Shown: positions 52,060-64,000 of the stretch, piece after piece
How positions within the stretch are numbered: position 1 is the stretch's first letter
Layout of the letters: every line of letters starts with the position of its first letter
Assembly (NCBI RefSeq): GCF_003019035.1
Contig: NZ_CP027448.1
Reading direction: 5' to 3' (one strand)
Origin: Escherichia coli
GTDB taxonomy: Bacteria; Pseudomonadota; Gammaproteobacteria; Enterobacterales; Enterobacteriaceae
DNA: 64,000 nt
Translations under genes and position numbers: made by a program
Notes under the pieces: generated by a model
Databases searched by the model: none
What the model was told of the DNA's origin: nothing
What the model saw: only the letters and a program-made list of their open reading frames with translations

Positions 52060-52743
52060 TTACGCAGCCTCCGGTTCAAACCAGTTATCATTCGCGGCCC
52101 CCTGCTGCATGGCCCGTTGCACGGCGGCCATTCGTTGCTGTCCGGCACGGTGATACTGTTCAAGCAGCTCGATACCGATATACCGGCGTCCGGACTGAAG
52201 GGCGACCACGCAGGTTGAGCCGCTGCCTGCAAACGGGTCCAGCACAATCGCGTTCGGATGTGTGAAGCTCTCAATCAGTGGTTGCAGGCTGGTAACGGGC
52301 TTTTCCGTCGGGTGATGGCGGTTGCCTGAATATTTCCAGCCCAGCACGTCCGGCAGCAGGTTTTGTGGCAGACGTGGACGGCCTTTTGCCAGGATGTAGG
52401 CGCATTCGTGGCGATAGCCCACATATGCGGCCTTCGATGTGTAGTTTTTGGTGAAGACCAGGTGCTCGACCACACTGAATCCCGCATTTTTCCAGGCGGC
52501 CATAAAGCGATCGACGCGGTTCCAGCCATAGAGGCTCACCATCAGCGCGTCTTTTTTCAGCACACGGTACATTTCATTACAGGCCGGTTGCAGCCATTCA
52601 TCGGTTTTATCACCCGCGATGGTACGTCCCTGACGGTCACGAAAACCGACGAGGTACGGCGGGTCAGTCAGCATGAAATCAATGGCGTTATCAGGGATAC
52701 GGGCCATAACATCGATGCAGTTACCGAGGACAAAACGGGACAT
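52060..52743 (-). CDS. Orphan DNA N6-adenine/N4-cytosine methyltransferase (beta-class), 227 aa
   Basis: Motif IV LTDPPYL near the N-terminus, motif I VLDPFAGSGSTC near the C-terminus, HPTEKP in between; no cognate endonuclease. Confidence 0.88.
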   Translation of the reverse strand: MSRFVLGNCIDVMARIPDNAIDFMLTDPPYLVGFRDRQGRTIAGDKTDEWLQPACNEMYRVLKKDALMVSLYGWNRVDRFMAAWKNAGFSVVEHLVFTKNYTSKAAYVGYRHECAYILAKGRPRLPQNLLPDVLGWKYSGNRHHPTEKPVTSLQPLIESFTHPNAIVLDPFAGSGSTCVVALQSGRRYIGIELLEQYHRAGQQRMAAVQRAMQQGAANDNWFEPEAA

Positions 52744-54695: not shown

Positions 54696-55129
54696 GTACC
54701 GTTTATCACCGTCCGGCTGACCCTTCAGGCGATGACAGTTACGTGCGACCGTTGTTTGCCGATCGTTGCCAGGCCGGTTTTCCTTCGCCTGCCACTGATT
54801 ATGCTGAGCAGGAACTGGATCTGAACAGCTATTGCATCAGCAGACCTGCAGCCACCTTCTTTCTGCGCGCCAGCGGTGAATCGATGAACCAGGCTGACGT
54901 GCAGAATGGTGATCTGCTGGTAGTGGACAGGGCCGAAAAACCACAACACGGGGACATCGTTATCGCTGAGATCGACGGTGAGTTCACCGTCAAACGACTG
55001 CTGTTGCGCCCACGCCCGGCACTGGAGCCGGTTTCAGACAGCCCGGAGTTCCGCACACTGTATCCGGAAAACATCTGTATTTTTGGTGTTGTCACTCACG
55101 TGATACACAGGACGCGGGAGTTACGCTGA
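54692..55129 (+). CDS. impA: ImpA, UmuD-family S24 self-cleaving protein, 145 aa
   Basis: ...GFPSPATDY..., catalytic Ser in RASGESM and Lys in FTVKRL. Confidence 0.9.
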   Translation: MSTVYHRPADPSGDDSYVRPLFADRCQAGFPSPATDYAEQELDLNSYCISRPAATFFLRASGESMNQADVQNGDLLVVDRAEKPQHGDIVIAEIDGEFTVKRLLLRPRPALEPVSDSPEFRTLYPENICIFGVVTHVIHRTRELR

Positions 55130-55256
55130 TGTTTACACTGGCTGATATCAACAGTTTCTACGCCTCATGTGAAAAAGTTTTCCGCCCGGACCTTCGCAAC
55201 GAACCGGTCATCGTACTCAGCAATAACGATGGCTGTGTGATCGCACGCAGCCCAGA
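55129..55256 (+). pseudogene. impB: impB (UmuC-family Y-polymerase) 5' fragment, codons 1-42
   Basis: MFTLADINSFYASCEKVFRPDLRNEPVIVLSNNDGCVIARSP, then the frame is lost at 55257. Confidence 0.9.
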
Positions 55257-55301
55257 TTATGTGGAATTGCAAGTAACGTTGTAGTGCTGATGAGGAAAAT
55301 T

Positions 55302-57530
55302 TTATCTGACTACAATATTGATATCGTTTTCCGCAACAATCAGCATCACGGCAGGTAAACCCTCCACACGCATTTTCTGGTGTAATTTTTTGATTAAATT
55401 ATCATCTTCATTACTGGCTTTTGCGGAAAAGCCTTGTGGATGGGAGTGCCATTCGCCAACATAATCGACAACACGAGCGGTCAACTGGTGAACCCGTTCT
55501 AATGCTTCTTGTTGTCCCGCTTCTCCCCGGACAAAGGAGGCTGGAGAGGATTTACTGTCGATAGGTTCAGGGAGCACGTCAACCAGAATAATCGTTTTGT
55601 TCTTAAAATCTGTTATGCCAACAATTGCACCTCCTGTTTCATTAGGCAGTGCCTGTAAGCGGGTGTGCTGCAATTTTTGCGCTAAGCCCTGGTCATATTT
55701 AACAACCCATTCGCCAGAAATTATAGATACCACGGAATAGAGTTCAATTTCATGTGCATCCATCGCGCCTGATATTTCATCAGATACCCAGATACACAAT
55801 CGAGCATTTCCTTTGAGTGCAGTCTGGCGAAGTTGGCGTGAGAGGATACCGGCATGAACATGAATACATTCACTGGACATACGTACAGAAATATCCCGAC
55901 ATCCACCACCGACCCAACGATCGCCATAATTGTGCTGTAGGTGAGTACTTCCCCACTCACTGCTCAAAATTGCCCGATAGTATTGCCCCTCAATTGCATC
56001 AATTCGGCATTGTCTGTCTACATCCTCCATTAACATCACGCTAGACTGACCCGATGGAGTCAGAAACAGGCTAACTATTCTGGGTATATCATCTTTTAAC
56101 ACTAGAGTCCTCGGCACCTCAAAGGTGGTACTGACATCCACAACTAAGTCTGCCTCATTCATTGCCTTAGCAATATCATCATCGTCATCAAGAATACTTT
56201 TATGGATCGCCTGAGGGAGGGGCTCATGCGGATAAATAGATTTGGCAATATGCTGAATAATATGGGGTTTTGAGACTCCAATATGACAATCAAACCCAAT
56301 ATGGCGAGACAAATTATGTGGAAGAAGCCGATCTGGATCAATAAAAGTCCATGTCCCCCACCCCATTCGAATCCAAATATCAGCCAATGTACTACCAAGA
56401 GCGCCAACTCCAGCTAAAATACCTCGAAAAGCTGCACTCTCTGAATCAACAGCAGATATGTCTCTCGCATGTGTGGCCTTCATAGCCGAACGTATTTCAA
56501 CTGGTAAAAGCGGTAATTGTCGCCACTTGGTACTAATTGATCCGCCAAGAAGCCGTACGCGATGCTGTACTCCTCGCTCATTTTTTGGCGCCAGCATATC
56601 TAGTGCAGTGGCAAGTTCACCGAGTGAACTTTGCACAACATAGCCCATCACATCCGTACGTTCTGTTTCTCCGTTTCTTAGACGGGGGATCCAAAGCAGG
56701 ATAAGTAAGCCTTCTCCTTTACCAGACGTTGGGCGGATACCATCACTTGGTATTGCTTCATAAACAGCGTCAGTTAGTGGTTTTAGGAGCTCACTTCCCC
56801 ATTCATTAAGTTGTTCTTCTAATTTTCCCAGATTATCCGGGTATGTAGCCACCGTAGAAACATCGACAGGAGGAACAGCAATAGTTAATAAGCGAAATGG
56901 CTTAACGCTTGAGGTATCTTGTTCTGGTACAGCCCTTAAAATAATCGGTCGCCCCTCACTGACCATCTGGAGACTGAGCTTATTGTCAGTCGCGTGATGA
57001 TAATCGGGGTAATTGGCTGGCAAAATGAGCTGATAGGGACTCAAATAAAAAAGTTGCTCAAGTGGCTGATCTTCTCGATGTAGATGCAGTTCGGCCGATT
57101 CTCTAAGCCACCAAAAAATGCGCTCAAGGAATCTCTCGGGGGTCCAACTGCGCTCAACTGCGCTCCAGGAGGCCTCATATAGGCAAAGAATTCGTGGTGA
57201 GCCAGGTTCTCCAGCATGCTGGTGAGAAAGAACAGGGAAATCTTTCCGCAATGCATGAACCAAGATAGGTATGCTTGATTTGGGATTGACCTCAATAGCC
57301 AATCGTTCTTTACGACGAATACGGGCTTGATTACCAGAAGCCACAGTCCCATCAGCAGCATCAATGATTAGATATTCCGAGCGGTTATCATTTATTTCAG
57401 AAAATCGTAATTCTCTGACTGTGACGTAAGGATGATTCTCGCATGCTTTAAGCAGCGAAATCGTTTGTGGATAAAGGCTATCGCGCCCCGATGAATCGAG
57501 GCGCTCACCCAATTCGAAATATTCGATCAT
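55302..57530 (-). CDS. E2-like / E1 (ThiF) adenylation / JAB deubiquitinase-like triple-fusion protein, 742 aa (Cap2+Cap3-like)
   Basis: E2-like LSHQHAGEPGSPRILC(116)LYE. E1 GILAGVGALGS (G374-x-G-x-x-G379), FIDPDRLLPHNLSRH, ADLVVDVSTTFE, GGGC(544)RD. JAB NE(631)TGGAIVG and EWH(695)SH(697)PQGFSAKAS(706)NED(709). Confidence 0.8.
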   Translation of the reverse strand: MIEYFELGERLDSSGRDSLYPQTISLLKACENHPYVTVRELRFSEINDNRSEYLIIDAADGTVASGNQARIRRKERLAIEVNPKSSIPILVHALRKDFPVLSHQHAGEPGSPRILCLYEASWSAVERSWTPERFLERIFWWLRESAELHLHREDQPLEQLFYLSPYQLILPANYPDYHHATDNKLSLQMVSEGRPIILRAVPEQDTSSVKPFRLLTIAVPPVDVSTVATYPDNLGKLEEQLNEWGSELLKPLTDAVYEAIPSDGIRPTSGKGEGLLILLWIPRLRNGETERTDVMGYVVQSSLGELATALDMLAPKNERGVQHRVRLLGGSISTKWRQLPLLPVEIRSAMKATHARDISAVDSESAAFRGILAGVGALGSTLADIWIRMGWGTWTFIDPDRLLPHNLSRHIGFDCHIGVSKPHIIQHIAKSIYPHEPLPQAIHKSILDDDDDIAKAMNEADLVVDVSTTFEVPRTLVLKDDIPRIVSLFLTPSGQSSVMLMEDVDRQCRIDAIEGQYYRAILSSEWGSTHLQHNYGDRWVGGGCRDISVRMSSECIHVHAGILSRQLRQTALKGNARLCIWVSDEISGAMDAHEIELYSVVSIISGEWVVKYDQGLAQKLQHTRLQALPNETGGAIVGITDFKNKTIILVDVLPEPIDSKSSPASFVRGEAGQQEALERVHQLTARVVDYVGEWHSHPQGFSAKASNEDDNLIKKLHQKMRVEGLPAVMLIVAENDINIVVR

Positions 57531-58708
57531 TGGTTTGATACACCTGCCCTAGGAGCGGCGGCCGTAGCAGCACTTACCGCAGCTGAAACAGCACCAACAA
57601 TAGCGGGTATTAACTTCCCGTCTCCAGCCACTTCAAATTCAAGGAACGCTGTATCTTTAAGATCCCCCGTACAGCTAAACCAACCATCAACACTGTCCAG
57701 AATATCCTCATACTCACGCTTAGCCCGGATGCACGGTGGATCATAATCATCATCAAGTATCTGATTGCTACTCGATACAATTGTTGCCCCGGAACGAGCC
57801 TGACCTAAAGCATTACGGGCCGCATCACAAACTTCAGCATTCTCCCCCCATTGTGACCAGCTATCATAGGAAAGTGAATGCCATGAACAATGATGCGGTG
57901 TGAGGAGAAGATCATATTCTAGTGCCTCAGCATTGCTTTTGTAACGATCCCATAATCGCTCCCAGATGAGAACTTCTGCGTCTCCACCTAATAGAAAGTG
58001 CATAGGATTACGGGAATATGCAGAGGGCAGTATTTTCATGTTCATGATGATACTGGATTCGTTTTTAGAAAGAGCTTCTTCCAAATATTCATCATCTTCA
58101 TGTGGTGCGGGCGCCAGAAGCTGTGCGGAGAACACTTCTGAAATTTGCCCGTCAATTCTGGTGAATGTATCTCCAGCTTTGATAAGAATGGCACTCAGAT
58201 CATCTGTTTTGCCATTAATATCTTCACCCATGATAAGGATTCGATTACCGCTAGATGCATAACCATGTTCCCGCCAGTATTTTACTCGGCGCCGTGCTTC
58301 TGTATTAAATGCCTGAGCATCTTCGCAAAGTGTGTGACTTTTGGAACGACGCCGAAAAATCAATGGTGATGACCACAATTCTCGAATAATGATACGCTTT
58401 TCTGAACGTTTCACATCGTCATCTGGATAATCTTCAGGACGGCCCAGCCAGAAATGTTTACGCAGGCCACCGCAATGATCCTGATCGGGATGACTGAGCA
58501 TAAAAACATCAATAAAGGGACGATCTTTTTCATCATACTTCAATCTGCTACGTAATGCCGAGGCAACATCAGGTGTGTCATCATTGGGGTTATCAGCAGC
58601 AGAGCGAATATGTACATCAATCAGAATGGATGTGCCCCGGGTGTCGGCCAAACGTACCAGTGTCATATCACCGTTGCCGACTTGGAAAAAAGTAATTTTG
58701 GCTGCCAT
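57527..58708 (-). CDS. Metallo-beta-lactamase-fold hydrolase, ComEC/Rec2-like subtype, 393 aa, with Ala/Gly-rich C-terminal tail
   Basis: FFQVGNGDMTLV, LSHPDQDHCGG, LLGGDAE and LTPHHCS follow the ComEC-type MBL motif order. The AGGAG SD favours ATG at 58708 over 58714. The stop overlaps the next gene's start (ATGA at 57527..57530). Confidence 0.78.
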   Translation of the reverse strand: MAAKITFFQVGNGDMTLVRLADTRGTSILIDVHIRSAADNPNDDTPDVASALRSRLKYDEKDRPFIDVFMLSHPDQDHCGGLRKHFWLGRPEDYPDDDVKRSEKRIIIRELWSSPLIFRRRSKSHTLCEDAQAFNTEARRRVKYWREHGYASSGNRILIMGEDINGKTDDLSAILIKAGDTFTRIDGQISEVFSAQLLAPAPHEDDEYLEEALSKNESSIIMNMKILPSAYSRNPMHFLLGGDAEVLIWERLWDRYKSNAEALEYDLLLTPHHCSWHSLSYDSWSQWGENAEVCDAARNALGQARSGATIVSSSNQILDDDYDPPCIRAKREYEDILDSVDGWFSCTGDLKDTAFLEFEVAGDGKLIPAIVGAVSAAVSAATAAAPRAGVSNQ

Positions 58709-58767
58709 CGACATCTCCTTTAGGGATACGAAAGATTGAGGTTAAGAGCATCTATTGCTAAGATACA

Positions 58768-58795
58768 TCTAGTAATTATACTAGTCTAGTAATTA
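58768..58795. promoter_or_regulatory. Candidate operator in the divergent promoter region
   Basis: Direct repeats TCTAGTAATTA at 58768..58778 and 58785..58795, enclosing the palindrome TACTAG-T-CTAGTA (58779..58791). Confidence 0.4.
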
Positions 58796-58842
58796 GACGT
58801 ATATTTTGGACTTAAATTGTAAGTACAGGAAATTATTGATAA

Positions 58843-59697
58843 ATGAGTGATAAAATGGTGAGAACTGGTCATTGGAGCCAAGAAAGACGGCTTGAATTCA
58901 TCGATTTTCGCCTACTGTGGGAAGGTCGGCTTAACCGTGCAGATCTCACGACATTTTTCAGAATTTCAGTTCCGCAAGCCTCATTAGATTTGGCAAAATA
59001 TCAAGAAGTTGCGCCAAACAACATGGTGTATGATCGAACTCAGAAGGCTTACATTACGACTCCTGATTTCAAACCTGTTTTTACAAGCTTTGACAGTAAT
59101 CATTACCTGAATGAACTACTTGGGCGAGAAAATGAAATAGTGGATCCTGATGATAGTTTCATTGGGTGGGTACCCCCGGTAGCCAGCCTTCCTCTCCCTG
59201 CCAGGAAAGTACAACCTGAAATATTGATTGATTTAATTCGAGCCATGCAAAGAAAACAGGCTTTGGTTGTTGATTATCGCTCAATGACTAATGAACCAGC
59301 AATTCGTACGCTATACCCAACAGCATTTGCACATGATGGGCATCGGTGGCATGTTCGTGCTTATTGTTTTAAGTCTACAATGTTTAAAGATTTTGTTCTT
59401 GGTAGGTTTTTTAAAATCGTTGAATTTGTTTCCCCACCGACATCAATTCCACAAGATGTGGACTGGAATACATTTATTGACGTGGTAATAGGTCCAAACC
59501 CTAACTACGATATGAATAAACGGCTATCTATTGAACATGATTATCAAATGGTAAAAGGAGAAGCAAAAATCCACATACGTAAAGCGCAATTATATTATCT
59601 TAATCGTCGATTAAATTTGGATGTAAATAGCGATGGTTCAATAGATGACAAACAGCAGATCATCATGCTCAGAATAGACGAGTCTAAAACCTATTAA
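58843..59697 (+). CDS. wHTH-WYL-domain transcriptional regulator (CapW/BrxR-like), 284 aa
   Basis: N-terminal RRLEFIDFRLLWEGRLNRADLTTFFRISVPQASLDLAKYQ (wHTH); WYL-type core ALVVDYRSMTNEPAIRTLYPTAFAHDGHRWHVRAYCFKSTMFKDFVLGRF. Confidence 0.78.
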   Translation: MSDKMVRTGHWSQERRLEFIDFRLLWEGRLNRADLTTFFRISVPQASLDLAKYQEVAPNNMVYDRTQKAYITTPDFKPVFTSFDSNHYLNELLGRENEIVDPDDSFIGWVPPVASLPLPARKVQPEILIDLIRAMQRKQALVVDYRSMTNEPAIRTLYPTAFAHDGHRWHVRAYCFKSTMFKDFVLGRFFKIVEFVSPPTSIPQDVDWNTFIDVVIGPNPNYDMNKRLSIEHDYQMVKGEAKIHIRKAQLYYLNRRLNLDVNSDGSIDDKQQIIMLRIDESKTY

Positions 59698-59709
59698 GGG
59701 AATATTTAT

Positions 59710-60228
59710 ATGAATGCGAATGATGTTAACAAACGGAATAAAGAATGGATGATTGTAATCATTATTATCTATCTTTTTATTTTGTTATGTATAGCAACAT
59801 ACGCTATTGGGGCTATGTCTCTAGGTTGGTTACCAACACCTTACGCACCATTAAGGGTGCCACTGATGTGCGGAGCAATTGCCTATATAGGTGGTTGTTT
59901 ATATTGTTTTCGTGCAATTTACCTCAATAAATGTATTAGAAAACAATGGGATCCAGATTGGCATGTATGGTATTTCATTCGCCCACTGACCAGTACAATC
60001 GCAGGTGCTATCAGTTATTTATTCCTTAAGGCGGGGTTGTTAGTTTTGGAGTCTAGTTCCAATGTAGGAGCTAGTGAAATGGGTTTCTTTGCGCTGGCAT
60101 TTATTGCTGGTTTTAACGTCGATAAATTTGTCGCAAAAATCGAGGAAGTTGCAAAGGCTGTCTGGGGTATTGAAAAAACTCGAAGCTCGACTAATAATGA
60201 TGCGAAAAATTCGGAAAAAAAAGAATAG
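59710..60228 (+). CDS. Four-TM membrane protein with charged C-terminal helix, 172 aa
   Basis: Hydrophobic segments ~13-35, 50-70, 85-108 and 122-137; starts 13 nt after the WYL gene stop; no motif recognised. Confidence 0.6.
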   Translation: MNANDVNKRNKEWMIVIIIIYLFILLCIATYAIGAMSLGWLPTPYAPLRVPLMCGAIAYIGGCLYCFRAIYLNKCIRKQWDPDWHVWYFIRPLTSTIAGAISYLFLKAGLLVLESSSNVGASEMGFFALAFIAGFNVDKFVAKIEEVAKAVWGIEKTRSSTNNDAKNSEKKE

Positions 60229-60274: not shown

Positions 60275-62486
60275 TTACTTTCTCTTATTTCCTGGGGTCG
60301 CGCCCCCAGTGAGCTTATTCAAAAGTTTGTCCACTGCCTGTATATCGTTTTCTACAGCGGCTTGTTCGTCATCAGTCAAAGGGATTTCCTGCATCAGCTT
60401 GAGTAGATTCTGGCGACCTTCCAAGTATTGTGCTTCAGATGAAGATTTTGGCATATAAAATGAGCATTTTGCACATGCCATCCGATGGGGGCATTGCTCA
60501 AAAAAGTCATAAGTACAGAAACCGTGTCCAAGATCATAATAACGCCATGGCTTCCCGGATGCTACCAGCCCTTCAGCTATCGCGTCTTGATCAATGAGAA
60601 CTGAAACCATGCGGCGATTACATTCAAAGTAACCAGCTTTATCCAGTGATCCTGCCAACCTCGTCGGTGTAATTTCGACATAATGTCGGGTAGATTCAGG
60701 TGAAGAATGCCCCAACCATTTCTGTAGCTCAAAAATATCAAGTGGTTCCCTGGCGTTGTAAAGCTGACTGGCTATAGTGGCTCTTGCCCGATGGCTGGTG
60801 ATTTTACCTCTGGCATCCTGCTCAGGTATACCAGCCTTTCTGCATAGCAAAGGGATTAGCGAATTATTAATATAACTACTGTGTACCCGTTTCCCCCTGT
60901 GCATGAACAAAAAACGGACGCTTTCACCTGTTTTAGAATCTTCCTGGAGGGGGTGGGGGTTACGAACAAGTTCCCATTGTTCGATATATTCCCCGATAAT
61001 AGGGTCAACTGGCTTTGTGAATGCCGCGTAAGTCTTGCTAACGGGTACATCTATCAGACAGATACGGGATACATTATTTTCTTCTGGCTGTTGCCAGCGG
61101 ATACACCCACACTGCATACGTAGAATTTCATCACGTCTGAGGCCTCCAAATAACCAGAGAACGCTGAGTGCTCTGACCATCTCCAGTGGATAAAAATAAG
61201 GATATGCAACACAGTTTGGTAAATCCGACTCCTGCAGGTTCTGTCCGGCGTGAAGTAATTTACACCACATATCATCGGCCACAATACGAGGCTCTGGTCC
61301 AACCAGGGAAGTCAAGCTACGCGGTGCCCTGAAAACTCTTTCTGGGCTGAATCGTACAGGTATCCATCCCCATTCCTGCAAGTCATGAAAGAAAGTTCTA
61401 ATATGACCCAACATCCTGGCTCTCGCTGCAGGCATCATCATTTTGCCACGACGGTCACGATACATGCCCCCAGGGGTTGCCCATTCACCAACTTTCATTC
61501 TACAAGCGGCGGTCACCCAGACGATCGCGGTGTCCCGTGTCCAATCAGATGGTGACAGACAGGTTGGATAGCACTCAGCTAACCAGCTGACCACACTTTA
61601 GCAAAACGTACCAACCGGACAAAATAGATGAAGGGCGAAGTACTGAGGTAGCACGCCACCGTTTGCACCATACCAGCCATTTAGTTGGTACATCAGCTGT
61701 TGCATTATATTCGCGGGGAGGACGGCGACGTTGTGTTATTCGGTAATCAACCCCTTCCTCAATAGTCCCTGATGCAGCCAGTATACGCGATAGAGTAGCT
61801 GAGGCTTCCCGGAGGGAATCCGGGCACGTTGCAGCAATCTGTTGCAACGTGGTCACGGTGATATGGTCTAGTTGAGCATCCCTTTGCAGAAGCATTGCCA
61901 TACACATGGCATTTCTGATGCCGTTGTTCCGACTATCACGAGGCACATATCCCAGAACCTGCATCATATTGTCAAGCTGGCTGACGGCAAAATCGGTGCT
62001 CTGTCGGCCAAAAACCTTAAGACAGAGCCGATATTGATAGAATATGCCACAGTGTTCCAGCCGCTCAAACCCACATAGCAACCATGCTAACGCTATAACA
62101 TATTGCCGACAGTTGCCGCTGGCTCCAAACCGTCGACGAAATTCCCCTTCGCTGTTGCAAATAACTTCTAACCACTCTTCTTGTGTCCAGGCCCAGTATG
62201 TTTTCCGGATGCGCTGCATCTCTAGGACTATATCGTGAATAGATGAATTGTAGGGGGCCTTGGCCGCATGCATTTTTGTTAGCGTGTCGCGTAGTGGTAA
62301 AAGAAGGCGGGAAAGCCGTTTTTGTATATCAGGTGACCAGTTTTTACCTCCTTGCTGGAAGTGGTCGACCAATGTATCCAGTGCCGCAAGCTCGCTTTCA
62401 GAGATCTCCGATCGGGTATCCCAAAGTAGGGCAGGAAGACTGAGTGATGTTGTCGGACAAGGCGCTGTATGTTCAGATTGCATCAT
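60275..62486 (-). pseudogene. Large tyrosine recombinase (Tn554 TnpB-like) split by a 1-nt frameshift into 303-aa N-terminal and 439-aa catalytic ORFs
   Basis: ORF 61575..62486 has no catalytic residues and ends ...GWYVLLKCGQLVS*. ORF 60275..61594 (track start is a GTG) continues ...WLAECYP... and carries GGLRRDEI, SHRARATIASQL, GHSSPESTRHYVE (R-H-R-Y) and a CPHRMACAKC motif. The frames overlap at 61575..61594. ATG 62486 overlaps the upstream stop (ATGATG). Confidence 0.65.
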
Positions 62487-63535
62487 GGAGAAGGATCCTG
62501 CTGTTGTAGTACAGTAAGGCGGCAAGTATGCAAGGATGCGACCGTGTAATTGAAACGACTACTCAGATCACGTGCGCTGAGATGAATATAGAGCAGAGTT
62601 GACTGGATACGACGGTGGCCAGCGAATGCAGCAATTTCGTGGATGTCCCACCCCACGCGTGCCAGTTCTGTCAGACAAAGATGTCGGAATGTGTGGGTGC
62701 TGATGAGTGGAAGATCAGCCTTAATAGCTAAACCGCGAACTACTTTTGACCAAGTCCAGTTGCTAATAGGTTCTGCCCGATTACGCGGAGAGCGTGAGAG
62801 AAACAACGGACCGCGAGATGAGCTTAGCATACGACGTTCAGTGAGCCATGCTGTGTAGAGTTCCCCCGTCACAGGAGAATAGGGCACAACCCGACCAAAG
62901 CGGTTTTTGGTATGCTCAGCGCGCACAGTGAGCAAGCGTTGAGAAGGGTCAATATCTCCGGTAGCTACTGTGCAAAGTTCTTCTCTGCGTAATCCGCAGT
63001 CGTAGGCCAGTGCCAGCATAAAACGAGTACGGATATCAGCTTGTCCGGCTACCTCAAGAAAGCGCAACCACTCCGCATCATCCGGGATCCACGGTAGCCG
63101 CCGCTGCAACGGCACTATACCAGCTTTTCCTTTCCCTCCGTTTTTCCAGACACCTCGTCTGACAGGATTTCTCTCCCGTATCCCCTCCTCACAAAGCCAA
63201 TAGTTGTACAGTCGTACCACCGTCAGCCGGTGGCGGATAGTGGCAGCTGCCAGCTGGCGACCGGTATGCAGGCTGCGGACATAGAGTGCGACCGTATCAC
63301 GTCCAGCGACAGCAGCCGTCAGGGCAACAGAGTGACAGAAAGCGAGCCAGTCATTGACGCCACGGGCATAGGCATCAATGGTGTTTGGAGCACACAGCAG
63401 GTCCTCCTGCAGGCACACCCACCGGCAAGCTGAAGGATCGGCCGACAGAAAAGGCAGCGCATCCAGCAGTTTCTTGTGCACAGCATCCCCCTTTTCGATA
63501 ACAGAATGTGTTGTATGAAATATAGTCAATTCCAA
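62483..63535 (-). CDS. Tyrosine recombinase (TnpA/XerD-like), up to 350 aa
   Basis: Catalytic set GLRREEL, HTFRHLCLT, GHRRIQSTLLYIH. The track start (63535) is a TTG only 8 nt from the element end; GTG at 63481 with a GGGGGA SD is a plausible alternative. Confidence 0.85.
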   Translation of the reverse strand: MELTIFHTTHSVIEKGDAVHKKLLDALPFLSADPSACRWVCLQEDLLCAPNTIDAYARGVNDWLAFCHSVALTAAVAGRDTVALYVRSLHTGRQLAAATIRHRLTVVRLYNYWLCEEGIRERNPVRRGVWKNGGKGKAGIVPLQRRLPWIPDDAEWLRFLEVAGQADIRTRFMLALAYDCGLRREELCTVATGDIDPSQRLLTVRAEHTKNRFGRVVPYSPVTGELYTAWLTERRMLSSSRGPLFLSRSPRNRAEPISNWTWSKVVRGLAIKADLPLISTHTFRHLCLTELARVGWDIHEIAAFAGHRRIQSTLLYIHLSARDLSSRFNYTVASLHTCRLTVLQQQDPSP

Positions 63536-63543
63536 ATAACATA

Positions 63544-64000
63544 GAAGCGAAGCGGCTGGGCATAAAAATGGGAGTACCGTGGTTTCAGCTGAAGTCGGTG
63601 AAATTTCCGGAGCCGGTCATCGCCTTCTCCAGTAATTACGCGCTATACGCATCGATGTCGAACAGGGTTATGTCTCATCTCGAGGAGCTGGCGCCGGGCG
63701 TGGAGCAGTACAGTATTGATGAGATGTTTCTCGACGTGCGGGGTATTGACAGCTGCATCGATTTCGAGGATTTCGGCCGGCAGCTGCGTGAACACGTCAG
63801 GAACGGGACTGGCCTGACTATCGGTGTCGGAATGGGGCTAACCAAAACGCTGGCAAAGTCAGCACAGTGGGCTTCCAAAGAGTGGCCACAGTTTGGTGGC
63901 GTGCTGGCGTTAACGCCAGGCAATATCCGCCGTACGGAAAAACTGCTGTCACTGCAGCCGGTGGAGGAAATCTGGGGGGTAGGCAGCAGGATATCAAAGA
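63544..64000 (+). pseudogene. impB: impB 3' portion (from codon 43), continues beyond window end
   Basis: Open frame EAKRLGIKMGVPWFQLKSVKFPEPVIAFSSNYALYASMSNRVMSHLEELAPGVEQYSIDEMFLDVRG...GVGMGLTKTLAKSAQWASK...IWGVGSRISK, colinear with UmuC residues ~43-195. Confidence 0.9.

What the first reader, a model, noticed from the sequence alone, without database searches (positions are those of the whole stretch)
55302..60228. Candidate uncharacterised conflict system: WYL regulator + 4-TM protein divergent from a ComEC-type MBL hydrolase coupled to an E2-E1-JAB (Cap2+Cap3-like) fusion, with no Ubl and no CD-NTase
The cargo of the impB insertion is two tightly packed divergent units.

- **Minus strand (58708->55302):** a metallo-beta-lactamase-fold hydrolase whose stop overlaps (ATGA, 57527-57530) the start of a 742-aa protein. 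That protein combines E2-like, ThiF/E1 adenylation and JAB/JAMM modules.
- **Plus strand (58843->60228):** an HTH-WYL regulator, followed 13 nt later by a 4-TM protein.

An E2-E1 fusion, a JAB peptidase and a divergent WYL repressor are the accessory chassis of type II CBASS (Cap2, Cap3, CapW). Here there is no nucleotidyltransferase, no obvious cyclic-nucleotide sensor and no ubiquitin-like ORF. The layout also differs from Bil-type operons, which have separate Ubl, E2, E1 and JAB genes.

Computational catalogues of bacterial E1/E2/JAB neighbourhoods exist (Aravind-group surveys). I know of no functional description of this MBL-centred, Ubl-less arrangement.

The context fits a defence or plasmid-conflict role:
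- It is cargo of a site-specific mobile element.
- It is visibly AT-richer than the flanks (not computed).
- It sits next to the plasmid leading region.
Basis: partly seen in the sequence, partly recalled or inferred. Interest (0 to 1): 0.95.

Follow-up and report, generated by a model that had tools for sequence, protein, structure and literature searches.

The report
Known 6A-MBL anti-phage system on plasmid
The four genes are real and intact, but they are a member of the already named and experimentally validated "6A-MBL" anti-phage defence system rather than an uncharacterised one; its detailed mechanism and its small membrane partner remain open.

Summary
An E2-E1-JAB fusion (742 aa) is translationally coupled to a ComEC-like MBL hydrolase. 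Divergent from these are a WYL regulator and a 4-TM protein. All sit as AT-rich cargo of a recombinase element inserted in impB.

The novelty claim does not hold. NCBIfam equivalog models name both core proteins: "anti-phage 6A-MBL system cap2_3 protein" (661 bits, cutoff 320) and "6A-MBL system MBL-fold protein" (426 bits, cutoff 220). This is operon type 6a of Iyer, Burroughs and Aravind (2006). Later papers cite it as an experimentally confirmed Pseudomonas aeruginosa defence (van den Berg 2024).

The missing Ubl is explained. The MBL protein ends in a disordered tail with a conserved PRAG motif plus a variable 0-7 residue extension. The tail class co-varies with the E2-E1-JAB class, so the MBL itself is the likely conjugated substrate, as the CD-NTase is in type II CBASS.

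Possibly new:
- A 4-TM protein from one of three unrelated families occupies an operonic slot in 62 of 80 loci from different species.
- Relatives of the window's 4-TM protein also pair with other ComEC-like MBL proteins where no E1/E2/JAB gene is present.

Verdict: new member of a known kind, modest interest.

The parts
55129..55256 (+). 5' fragment of impB (umuC-type Y-family polymerase gene), cut by the insertion. The ORF then reads into the element as far as 55284.
   Evidence: ORF list. RefSeq annotation of a 99.9%-identical plasmid gives 'protein ImpB, missing C-terminus'. Junction sequence.
55254..55256 (.). Left copy of the 3-bp AGA repeat that flanks the inserted element. The right copy is at 63543-63545.
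   Evidence: Direct reading of both junctions. Joining the flanks restores an impB reading frame that aligns in one piece with intact umuDC-type genes.
55257..55269 (.). Left terminal imperfect inverted repeat, TTATgTGGAATTG. Its partner is at 63527-63539 (TTATtTGGAATTG on the other strand).
   Evidence: Read directly from the end sequences. These are probable recombinase-binding sites; that role is inferred.
55302..57530 (-). 6A-MBL 'cap2_3' protein, a fusion of E2 (C116), an E1 adenylation domain (G374xGxxG379, R409, C544) and a JAB/JAMM peptidase (E631, H695, H697, S706, D709).
   Evidence: NCBIfam NF058523 scores 661 bits against a cutoff of 320. Pfam Prok-E2_A, ThiF and Prok-JAB. PADLOC E1-E2 and JAB models. 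Invariant residues in 15 homologues down to 41% identity.
57527..58714 (-). 6A-MBL enzyme, a ComEC-like metallo-beta-lactamase-fold hydrolase. It carries H75-x-D77-x-D79-H80, D245 and H274/H275. Residues 373-395 form a disordered C-terminal tail that ends PRAG391 followed by VSNQ. The true start is probably 58708.
   Evidence: NCBIfam NF058524 scores 425.6 bits against a cutoff of 220. Alignments. AF2 model with pLDDT 88.9 and a tail below 50. Best Foldseek match is the ComEC MBL domain 9ic4, E 1.8e-13. C-terminal motif statistics.
58715..58842 (.). Divergent promoter and operator region. An 11-bp direct repeat, TCTAGTAATTA, lies at 58768-58778 and 58785-58795. A promoter-like site lies at 58755-58782.
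   Evidence: The repeat occurs only twice in the 64-kb window, against 0 expected. The core GCTAAGATAC...GTCTA...CGtATAttTTTT is conserved in the E. coli variant, an enterobacterial MAG and P. aeruginosa, while the flanks diverge. Promoter scan. Operator function is inferred.
58843..59697 (+). BrxR/CapW-type HTH-WYL transcriptional regulator.
   Evidence: Pfam WYL. PADLOC WYL. The P. aeruginosa orthologue carries WHD_BrxR, WYL and BrxR_CTD. Newer RefSeq annotation reads 'BrxR family'. A homologue lies divergent from the MBL gene in 41 of 80 loci.
59710..60228 (+). Four-helix membrane protein ('TM4' family) with an amphipathic C-terminal helix. It matches no named family.
   Evidence: No hit in Pfam, PADLOC, NCBIfam or PHROGs. 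563 homologues with many invariant residues. AF2 model with four long helices. No PDB fold match. The same four-gene layout occurs in P. aeruginosa. It holds an operonic slot in 6A-MBL loci.
60275..62525 (-). Large tyrosine recombinase, present here as two overlapping ORFs (61575-62525 and 60275-61594). In an 85%-identical variant element it is a single 736-aa protein.
   Evidence: Pfam Phage_integrase on the downstream ORF. BLASTP gives 49% and 68% identity to residues 3-300 and 301-736 of the single protein.
62483..63535 (-). XerC/D-like tyrosine recombinase next to the right end of the element. The RefSeq start is equivalent to about 63481.
   Evidence: Pfam Phage_integrase and Phage_int_SAM_1. 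RefSeq annotation.

Best explanation
The region is a complete, intact copy of the 6A-MBL anti-phage defence system. It is carried as cargo of an 8.3-kb tyrosine-recombinase element that inserts site-specifically into impB/umuC.

Proposed working, step by step:
1. Inferred: the BrxR/CapW-type WYL protein represses the divergent promoter through the conserved TCTAGTAATTA repeats until infection or damage relieves it.
2. Supported by sequence: the MBL enzyme is made with a flexible 23-residue tail that carries PRAG391 and a four-residue propeptide.
3. Inferred by analogy with Cap3 and BilC: the JAB domain trims the propeptide and later reverses conjugation.
4. Inferred from conserved motifs and from type II CBASS Cap2 biochemistry: the E1 domain adenylates Gly391 and passes it through C544 to the E2 cysteine C116. 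The E2 then ligates the MBL enzyme to a target lysine, which primes or localises it. No separate Ubl is needed, because the MBL is its own Ubl.
5. Inferred from fold: the MBL domain is a ComEC/RNase J-like phosphodiesterase and is most likely a nuclease effector.
6. Inferred from gene neighbourhoods: the 4-TM protein is a dedicated membrane partner of the MBL enzyme.
For: Identity as 6A-MBL:
- NCBIfam equivalogs score about twice their cut-offs for both core proteins.
- The core matches operon type 6a of Iyer et al. 2006.
- Other papers call 6A-MBL experimentally confirmed and list it among the jumbo-phage defences.

Co-occurrence:
- The MBL gene is followed directly by an E1-containing protein in 75 of 80 loci from different species across many phyla. 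The remaining loci are contig ends or degenerate copies.

Catalytic residues of E2, E1, JAB and MBL are invariant.

The tail as conjugation handle:
- The tail carries a conserved PRAG, PxPHG, xHG or (Y/F)A terminus.
- Among sequences with a recognised terminal motif (148 of 195), 32 end exactly at the motif and 116 carry 1-7 extra residues, mostly 2-4.
- The tail is disordered in the AF2 model.
- The tail class tracks the E2-E1-JAB class: 36-65% identity to the window protein for RAG tails, about 24% for HG tails. The MBL catalytic domain stays at 48-72% identity throughout.

Fold: the nearest matches are the ComEC MBL domain, the Pce phosphodiesterase and RNase J/Z. An MBL in Avs2-trypsin-MBL has nuclease activity according to its abstract.

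Regulator: divergent WYL in 41 of 80 loci, with a conserved operator-like repeat.

The same four-gene block occurs in P. aeruginosa.
Against: - I could not read the primary experimental paper (van den Berg 2024 is not held). I therefore do not know which genes were in the tested construct, which phages were used, or whether conjugation was shown.
- No biochemical evidence was available to me for cleavage after Gly391, for conjugation of the MBL, or for its substrate.
- The co-variation between tail class and E2-E1-JAB class could partly reflect shared ancestry.
- 'Nuclease' rests on fold similarity at 14% identity.
- The window's own 4-TM family is present in only 5 of the 80 species-level loci.
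Confidence: 0.85

Rival explanations
1. CBASS-like signalling version. The MBL enzyme makes or degrades a small-molecule signal rather than cutting nucleic acid. The 4-TM protein is the killing effector, a membrane pore that causes abortive infection.
For: The Corbett-lab preprint groups the MBL with 'signaling enzymes'. Small multi-TM effectors are typical of CBASS and Pycsar (established knowledge). A 4-TM gene sits in an operonic position in 62 of 80 loci.
Against: MBL-fold enzymes are hydrolases, and the nearest folds are nucleases and phosphodiesterases. The window's 4-TM protein has only short loops and no recognisable ligand-binding domain. 18 of 80 loci show none of the three 4-TM families.
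Confidence: 0.15
2. The WYL gene and the 4-TM gene form an independent neighbouring module, and only the two minus-strand genes are the system.
For: NCBIfam defines only two 6A-MBL components, and Iyer et al. describe 'usually two genes'. Relatives of the 4-TM protein occur away from any E2-E1-JAB gene.
Against: WYL is divergent from the MBL in 41 of 80 loci. The 4-TM gene moves between two operonic positions inside the locus, after WYL or 0-95 bp after E2-E1-JAB. Three unrelated 4-TM families fill the same slot almost mutually exclusively. Outside 6A-MBL loci the 4-TM relatives again sit beside ComEC-like MBL proteins. The four-gene block is conserved from E. coli plasmids to P. aeruginosa.
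Confidence: 0.2
3. Not phage defence here. The system acts as a plasmid-conflict or DNA-entry function, for example attacking incoming conjugative or transforming DNA, exploiting a ComEC-like nuclease at the membrane.
For: The ComEC MBL domain is the closest fold. The locus is on conjugative plasmids: 170 PLSDB records carry at least 80% of it. It lies near anti-restriction and methylase genes.
Against: Equivalog-level membership of a system reported as anti-phage. The same element also sits in chromosomal umuC genes. In P. aeruginosa it lies among other defence-like genes. The two roles are not mutually exclusive.
Confidence: 0.1

Closest known systems
6A-MBL anti-phage system (operon type 6a of Iyer, Burroughs and Aravind 2006; validated in Pseudomonas aeruginosa by van den Berg et al. 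2024, Cell Host Microbe 32:1427)
   Same: It has the same two core genes in the same order: an MBL-fold protein followed by an E2-E1-JAB triple-module protein. Both score above the NCBIfam equivalog cut-offs. P. aeruginosa homologues are 57-65% identical for the E2-E1-JAB protein and 66-76% for the MBL. One P. aeruginosa locus has the identical four-gene layout.
   Different: The host and vehicle differ: E. coli, Klebsiella and E. albertii conjugative plasmids, via an impB/umuC-targeting recombinase element. I could not establish whether the WYL and 4-TM genes are part of the published definition.
Type II CBASS (CD-NTase + Cap2 E1-E2 + Cap3 JAB, with CapW regulator)
   Same: The conjugation chassis is homologous (PADLOC E1-E2 and JAB models; Cap2 7tsq; a weak Cap3 NCBIfam hit). 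The substrate is the system's own enzyme through a disordered C-terminal Gly/Ala tail. A divergent WYL repressor is present.
   Different: There is no CD-NTase and no cyclic-nucleotide-sensing effector. Cap2 and Cap3 are fused into one protein. The conjugated enzyme is an MBL-fold hydrolase. In this clade the tail carries a short propeptide after the Gly.
Bil (type I/II) and Bub bacterial ubiquitination-like operons
   Same: They use E1, E2 and JAB-type enzymology and have a role in phage defence. Their pre-proteins have C-terminal extensions removed by a peptidase.
   Different: Bil and Bub encode a separate Ubl and separate E1, E2 and peptidase genes. Here there is no Ubl gene and the three enzymes are fused.
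ComEC C-terminal MBL nuclease domain and other defence-associated MBL proteins (Avs1a, Avs2-trypsin-MBL, PADLOC PDC-M48B, LmuA-MBL, DRT RTasMBL)
   Same: They share the fold and the N-terminal FxxVGxGD...HPDxDH motif. Nuclease activity is reported for the Avs2-associated MBL.
   Different: Sequence identity is only about 14%. The 6A-MBL enzyme has extra insertions (TM-score 0.49 over the query) and the unique Gly-terminated tail. The paralogues lack that tail.
rulB-targeting integron-like elements (ILEs) of Pseudomonas (Rhodes et al. 2014, PMC4542609)
   Same: Both insert site-specifically near the 5' end of a umuC/rulB homologue and are flanked by a 3-bp repeat. Both have a recombinase-gene end and a variable cargo end.
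   Different: This element has two recombinase genes, one of them split in this lineage, rather than three plus tetR. The repeat is AGA, not GAT. Homology of the recombinases to those of the ILEs was not tested.

Membership tests
6A-MBL anti-phage system | [quoted passage not shown] | tested here: met
   Pfam finds Prok-E2_A at 67-174, ThiF at 369-472 and Prok-JAB at 617-734. NCBIfam NF058523 '6A-MBL_cap2_3' equivalog scores 661.1 bits against a cutoff of 320.
6A-MBL anti-phage system | Adjacent specialised MBL-fold protein in the same operon | tested here: met
   NF058524 '6A-MBL_enzyme' equivalog scores 425.6 bits against a cutoff of 220. A 4-nt ATGA overlap joins it to the downstream gene. 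The same adjacency holds in 75 of 80 loci from other species.
6A-MBL anti-phage system | Intact catalytic residues: E2 Cys, E1 Cys and adenylation motifs, JAMM motif, MBL HxDxDH | tested here: met
   C116, C544, GxGxxG 374-379, E631, H695, H697, S706 and D709 are invariant. H75, D77, D79, H80, D245, H274 and H275 are invariant.
6A-MBL anti-phage system | Protection against phage infection | not testable with these tools
   Reported for the P. aeruginosa system in papers that cite van den Berg 2024. The primary paper is not held.
6A-MBL anti-phage system | Conjugation of the MBL enzyme through its C-terminus by the E2-E1 module | tested here: inconclusive
   The sequence is consistent with it: a conserved Gly/Ala terminus, a disordered tail, and tail class co-varying with E2-E1-JAB class. 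No biochemistry was available.
Type II CBASS | CD-NTase (cGAS/DncV-like nucleotidyltransferase) gene | tested here: not met
   None of the seven ORFs of the element matches a nucleotidyltransferase in Pfam. None of the four cargo proteins does so in PADLOC or NCBIfam.
Type II CBASS | Cap2 (E1-E2) and Cap3 (JAB) homologues | tested here: met
   PADLOC CBASS E1-E2 and JAB models score down to 1e-23. Cap2 structures are hit in the PDB. The two are fused here into one protein.
Type II CBASS | Cyclic-nucleotide-activated effector | tested here: not met
   No SAVED, STING, Cap4, Cap5 or similar domain was found. The 4-TM protein has no matches at all.
Bil (bacterial ISG15-like) systems | Separate ubiquitin-like gene (BilA) and separate E2, JAB and E1 genes | tested here: not met
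   Only four cargo ORFs fill 55302-60228. E2, E1 and JAB are one polypeptide. No Ubl ORF is present.
BrxR/CapW family of WYL defence regulators | wHTH-WYL-CTD protein encoded divergently from the defence operon, with an operator in the shared promoter | tested here: met
   WYL domain. The orthologue carries WHD_BrxR, WYL and BrxR_CTD. RefSeq names it BrxR family. A unique 11-bp repeat lies in the 128-bp intergenic region and is conserved across genera. DNA binding itself was not tested.
rulB/umuC-targeting integron-like elements (ILE) | Site-specific insertion in a umuC/rulB homologue with a 3-bp flanking repeat | tested here: met
   AGA lies at both junctions and the empty site can be reconstructed. 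The same element sits in plasmid impB and in chromosomal umuC.
rulB/umuC-targeting integron-like elements (ILE) | Conserved side with three recombinase genes plus tetR | tested here: not met
   There are two recombinase genes, one split into two ORFs in this lineage, and no tetR. Sequence homology to the ILE recombinases was not tested.

The most novel reading that the evidence does not exclude
6A-MBL may really be a membrane-associated system of three or four components whose core effector pair is 'small 4-TM protein + ComEC-like MBL nuclease', a split analogue of ComEC.

- Three unrelated 4-TM families with the same 2+2 topology fill the same operonic slot in 62 of 80 loci.
- Relatives of the window's 4-TM protein pair with other ComEC-like MBL proteins (PADLOC candidate PDC-M48B type) where no E1/E2/JAB is present.

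On this reading the E2-E1-JAB protein is a regulatory add-on, as Cap2/Cap3 are in CBASS. It would prime or tether the nuclease, possibly to attack DNA at the membrane. Neither NCBIfam, Pfam nor PADLOC 2.0 has a model for any of these 4-TM proteins. I could not check whether the primary 6A-MBL paper describes them.
Probability: 0.3. Interest if true: 0.6.

Novelty: new member of a known kind. Interest (0 to 1): 0.3.

Why it matters
As a discovery of a new system it does not stand. The architecture was catalogued in 2006, validated as a phage defence in 2024, and is now named by NCBI's annotation models.

It still matters in three modest ways.
- A ubiquitin-like conjugation defence is spread among Enterobacteriaceae on conjugative plasmids. 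An impB/umuC-seeking element carries it, in 170 PLSDB plasmids and some chromosomes.
- The comparative data give concrete, testable mechanistic handles: Gly391 with its four-residue propeptide, and the tail class co-varying with the E2-E1-JAB class.
- An unannotated membrane partner appears to belong to the system. The mechanism of this system has no solved structure in the PDB copy searched.

Tried and rejected
- Type II CBASS with a cryptic cyclase: rejected. No nucleotidyltransferase signal appears in any ORF of the element.
- Bil or Bub: rejected. There is no Ubl gene and the enzymes are fused.
- Primary paper (van den Berg 2024): not held, whether looked up by PubMed id or by DOI. Ledvina 2023 is also not held. 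Literature searches for 'E2-E1-JAB' and 'type 6A' returned only noise.
- Fold search of the 4-TM model against the PDB: only non-significant GPCR-like helical-bundle hits, with E above 0.3.
- Profile-profile comparison of the three 4-TM families: no similarity, with probabilities below 1%. They are analogous, not demonstrably homologous.
- Pfam, PADLOC, NCBIfam and PHROGs on the 4-TM proteins: nothing.
- One look-up of a distant 4-TM homologue found no contig.
- Terminator and promoter scans of the region were at chance level overall. Only the promoter-like site that overlaps the conserved repeat was kept, as a lead.

Full report
**Observation.**
- A 742-aa protein lies at 55302-57530 (-).
- Its start overlaps by ATGA the stop of a 395-aa protein at 57527-58714 (-).
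- A 284-aa protein lies at 58843-59697 (+), followed after 12 nt by a 172-aa protein at 59710-60228 (+).
- Pfam finds Prok-E2_A, ThiF and Prok-JAB in the large protein and WYL in the regulator. It finds nothing in the other two.
- PADLOC 2.0 matches the CBASS E1-E2 and JAB models. For the MBL it gives only weak LmuA, RTasMBL and PDC-M48B hits.
- GC falls from 0.54-0.63 in the 48-55 kb flank to 0.35-0.48 across the four genes.

**What it is.** NCBIfam release 20 settles the identity.
- The large protein matches equivalog NF058523, 'anti-phage 6A-MBL system cap2_3 protein', at 661 bits against a cutoff of 320.
- The hydrolase matches equivalog NF058524, 'anti-phage 6A-MBL system MBL-fold protein', at 425.6 bits against a cutoff of 220.

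The literature agrees.
[quoted passage not shown] It cites van den Berg et al. 2024.
- A 2026 review describes 6A-MBL among P. aeruginosa proteins with experimentally confirmed antiphage activity.
- A 2025 preprint from the same group lists 6A-MBL among known jumbo-phage defences.

I could not obtain the primary paper.

**Conservation and co-occurrence.**
- The MBL family has more than 2,500 members in the protein collection. The E2-E1-JAB search returned about 300. P. aeruginosa homologues are 66-76% and 57-65% identical respectively.
- In 80 loci from different species (Proteobacteria, Acidobacteria, Cyanobacteria, Spirochaetia, Actinomycetota and others), the MBL gene is directly followed by an E1-containing protein in 75. 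The remaining five are contig ends or degenerate copies.
- C116, C544, the GxGxxG loop, E631, H695, H697, S706 and D709 are invariant down to 41% identity.
- H75, D77, D79, H80, D245, H274 and H275 are invariant in 61 MBL sequences.

**Why there is no Ubl.** The MBL protein ends in a tail, residues 373-395, that AlphaFold leaves disordered. The rest of the model is confident, with mean pLDDT 88.9.
- In the gammaproteobacterial clade the tail carries a nearly invariant APRAG followed by 0-7 variable residues. In the window these are G391 followed by VSNQ.
- Other clades end in PxPHG, xHG or (Y/F)A.
- Many proteins stop exactly at the small residue.
- The MBL catalytic domain stays 48-72% identical to the window protein across all classes. 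The partner E2-E1-JAB identity depends on the tail class: 36-65% for RAG, about 24% for the HG classes, and only the E1 core alignable for the YA class.

This pattern is expected if the tail is the substrate of the E1, E2 and JAB domains, as the CD-NTase tail is for Cap2/Cap3. It is indirect evidence, and shared ancestry may contribute to it.

**Likely chemistry of the effector.**
- By sequence the MBL weakly matches the ComEC beta-lactamase-like domain.
- By fold its best PDB matches are the ComEC MBL domain 9ic4 (E 1.8e-13), the Pce phosphodiesterase, RNase J and RNase Z.
- No structure of a 6A-MBL component appeared in the PDB copy searched.
- Related MBL proteins recur in other defence systems such as Avs1a, LmuA, DRT and PDC-M48B. 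The MBL of Avs2-trypsin-MBL is reported to have nuclease activity.

A nuclease or phosphodiesterase effector is therefore the best guess, and it is inferred.

**Accessory genes.**
- A WYL homologue lies divergent from the MBL gene in 41 of 80 loci. Some WYL-less loci instead carry a Peptidase_M78 (IrrE-like) protein, and a few carry an XRE-type HTH.
- The 128-bp intergenic region holds an 11-bp direct repeat, TCTAGTAATTA, that occurs nowhere else in the window. It sits in a core conserved from E. coli to P. aeruginosa. This is a plausible operator.
- The 4-TM protein belongs to a family of 563 proteins with many invariant residues. It matches no named family or solved fold.
- Its family is present in only 5 of the 80 loci. 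However, two other families with no detectable similarity and the same 2+2 TM topology are present in 36 and 21 loci, almost mutually exclusively.
- The 4-TM gene is always operonic, either after WYL or 0-95 bp after E2-E1-JAB.
- P. aeruginosa contigs carry the identical four-gene layout next to a Y-family polymerase gene.
- Distant relatives of the window's 4-TM protein lie outside any 6A-MBL locus. There they again sit beside ComEC-like MBL proteins of the PADLOC PDC-M48B type. Such paralogues also flank about 23 of the 80 6A-MBL loci.

This recurrent '4-TM + ComEC-like MBL' pairing is the most interesting thing I found. I cannot tell whether it has been described.

**The vehicle.**
- The element runs from 55257 to about 63542 and is flanked by AGA at 55254-55256 and 63543-63545. 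It has imperfect terminal inverted repeats.
- Joining the flanks restores a reading frame that aligns in one piece with intact umuDC-type genes.
- The 5.1-kb cargo occurs at 80% coverage or more in 170 PLSDB plasmids of E. coli, E. albertii and Klebsiella. It occurs in 28 of 5,426 complete E. coli genomes, including copies in chromosomal umuC.
- It resembles the rulB-targeting integron-like elements of Pseudomonas. It differs in having two recombinase genes, one of them split in this lineage.

**Verdict.** This is a new member of a known, named and validated system, and interest is modest at 0.3. The residual open points are the conjugation target, the substrate of the MBL, and the role of the 4-TM partner.

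Noticed in passing
window 60275-62525 (-): The two overlapping ORFs 61575-62525 (no Pfam hit) and 60275-61594 (Phage_integrase) correspond to the N- and C-terminal parts of one 736-aa tyrosine recombinase in an 85%-identical variant element (L085:11071-13281). In this lineage the gene is therefore split, by a frameshift or as a genuine two-gene arrangement. The element has two recombinases rather than three.
   Followed up: partly
window 55254-55269 and 63527-63545: The element is bounded by a 3-bp AGA repeat. It has imperfect terminal inverted repeats, TTATgTGGAATTG and TTATtTGGAATTG. The right repeat is set back 3 bp from the junction.
   Followed up: partly
window 58768-58795; L081, L085 and L001 intergenic regions: An 11-bp direct repeat, TCTAGTAATTA, with a 17-bp period is unique in the window. 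It lies within a promoter core conserved between E. coli and P. aeruginosa 6A-MBL loci. It is a candidate BrxR/WYL operator.
   Followed up: partly
L002-L079 (for example L002:11540-12289 and L011:7352-7978): Two further families of 4-TM proteins are encoded in the operonic slot of 6A-MBL loci, in 36 and 21 of 80 species. One is about 250-265 aa with a soluble loop of about 100 aa. The other is about 210 aa. Neither has a Pfam, NCBIfam or PADLOC match.
   Followed up: partly
L086:6001-7623, L087:6001-7623, L088:738-2142, L089:6001-7811: Relatives of the window's 4-TM protein (about 58-60% identity) occur without any E2-E1-JAB gene. They lie next to other ComEC-like MBL proteins that match the PADLOC candidate PDC-M48B (520 bits). 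Several are beside integrases or other defence genes such as HamA or Cap4-like nucleases.
   Followed up: partly
L003, L016, L031-L034, L039, L043-L049, L054 and others: A second ComEC-like MBL paralogue (PDC-M48B type, or a type of about 290 aa) lies immediately downstream of E2-E1-JAB in about 23 of 80 loci. These paralogues end in acidic tails, not in Gly.
   Followed up: no
L011:5493-6308, L018, L020 and L030: Some 6A-MBL loci that lack WYL carry a Peptidase_M78 (IrrE-like) protein, and a few also carry an XRE-type HTH. This is reminiscent of the CapH/CapP regulators of CBASS.
   Followed up: no
L035 and L036 (Acidobacteriota): In the clade whose MBL ends in (Y/F)A, the JAB module is a separate ORF after an E2-E1 protein. 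This is a Cap2 + Cap3-like split arrangement, so the fusion is not universal in MBL-linked operons.
   Followed up: no
L091-L100 (IMG/VR contigs): Ten predicted viral or prophage contigs encode relatives of the MBL enzyme at 28-87% identity. Their neighbourhoods were not examined.
   Followed up: no
window 52060-52743 (-): The DNA methylase ORF upstream of the impCAB-like genes is intact here (227 aa). The corresponding gene in the near-identical plasmid pEc-CD45-2 is annotated as a pseudogene with an internal stop.
   Followed up: no
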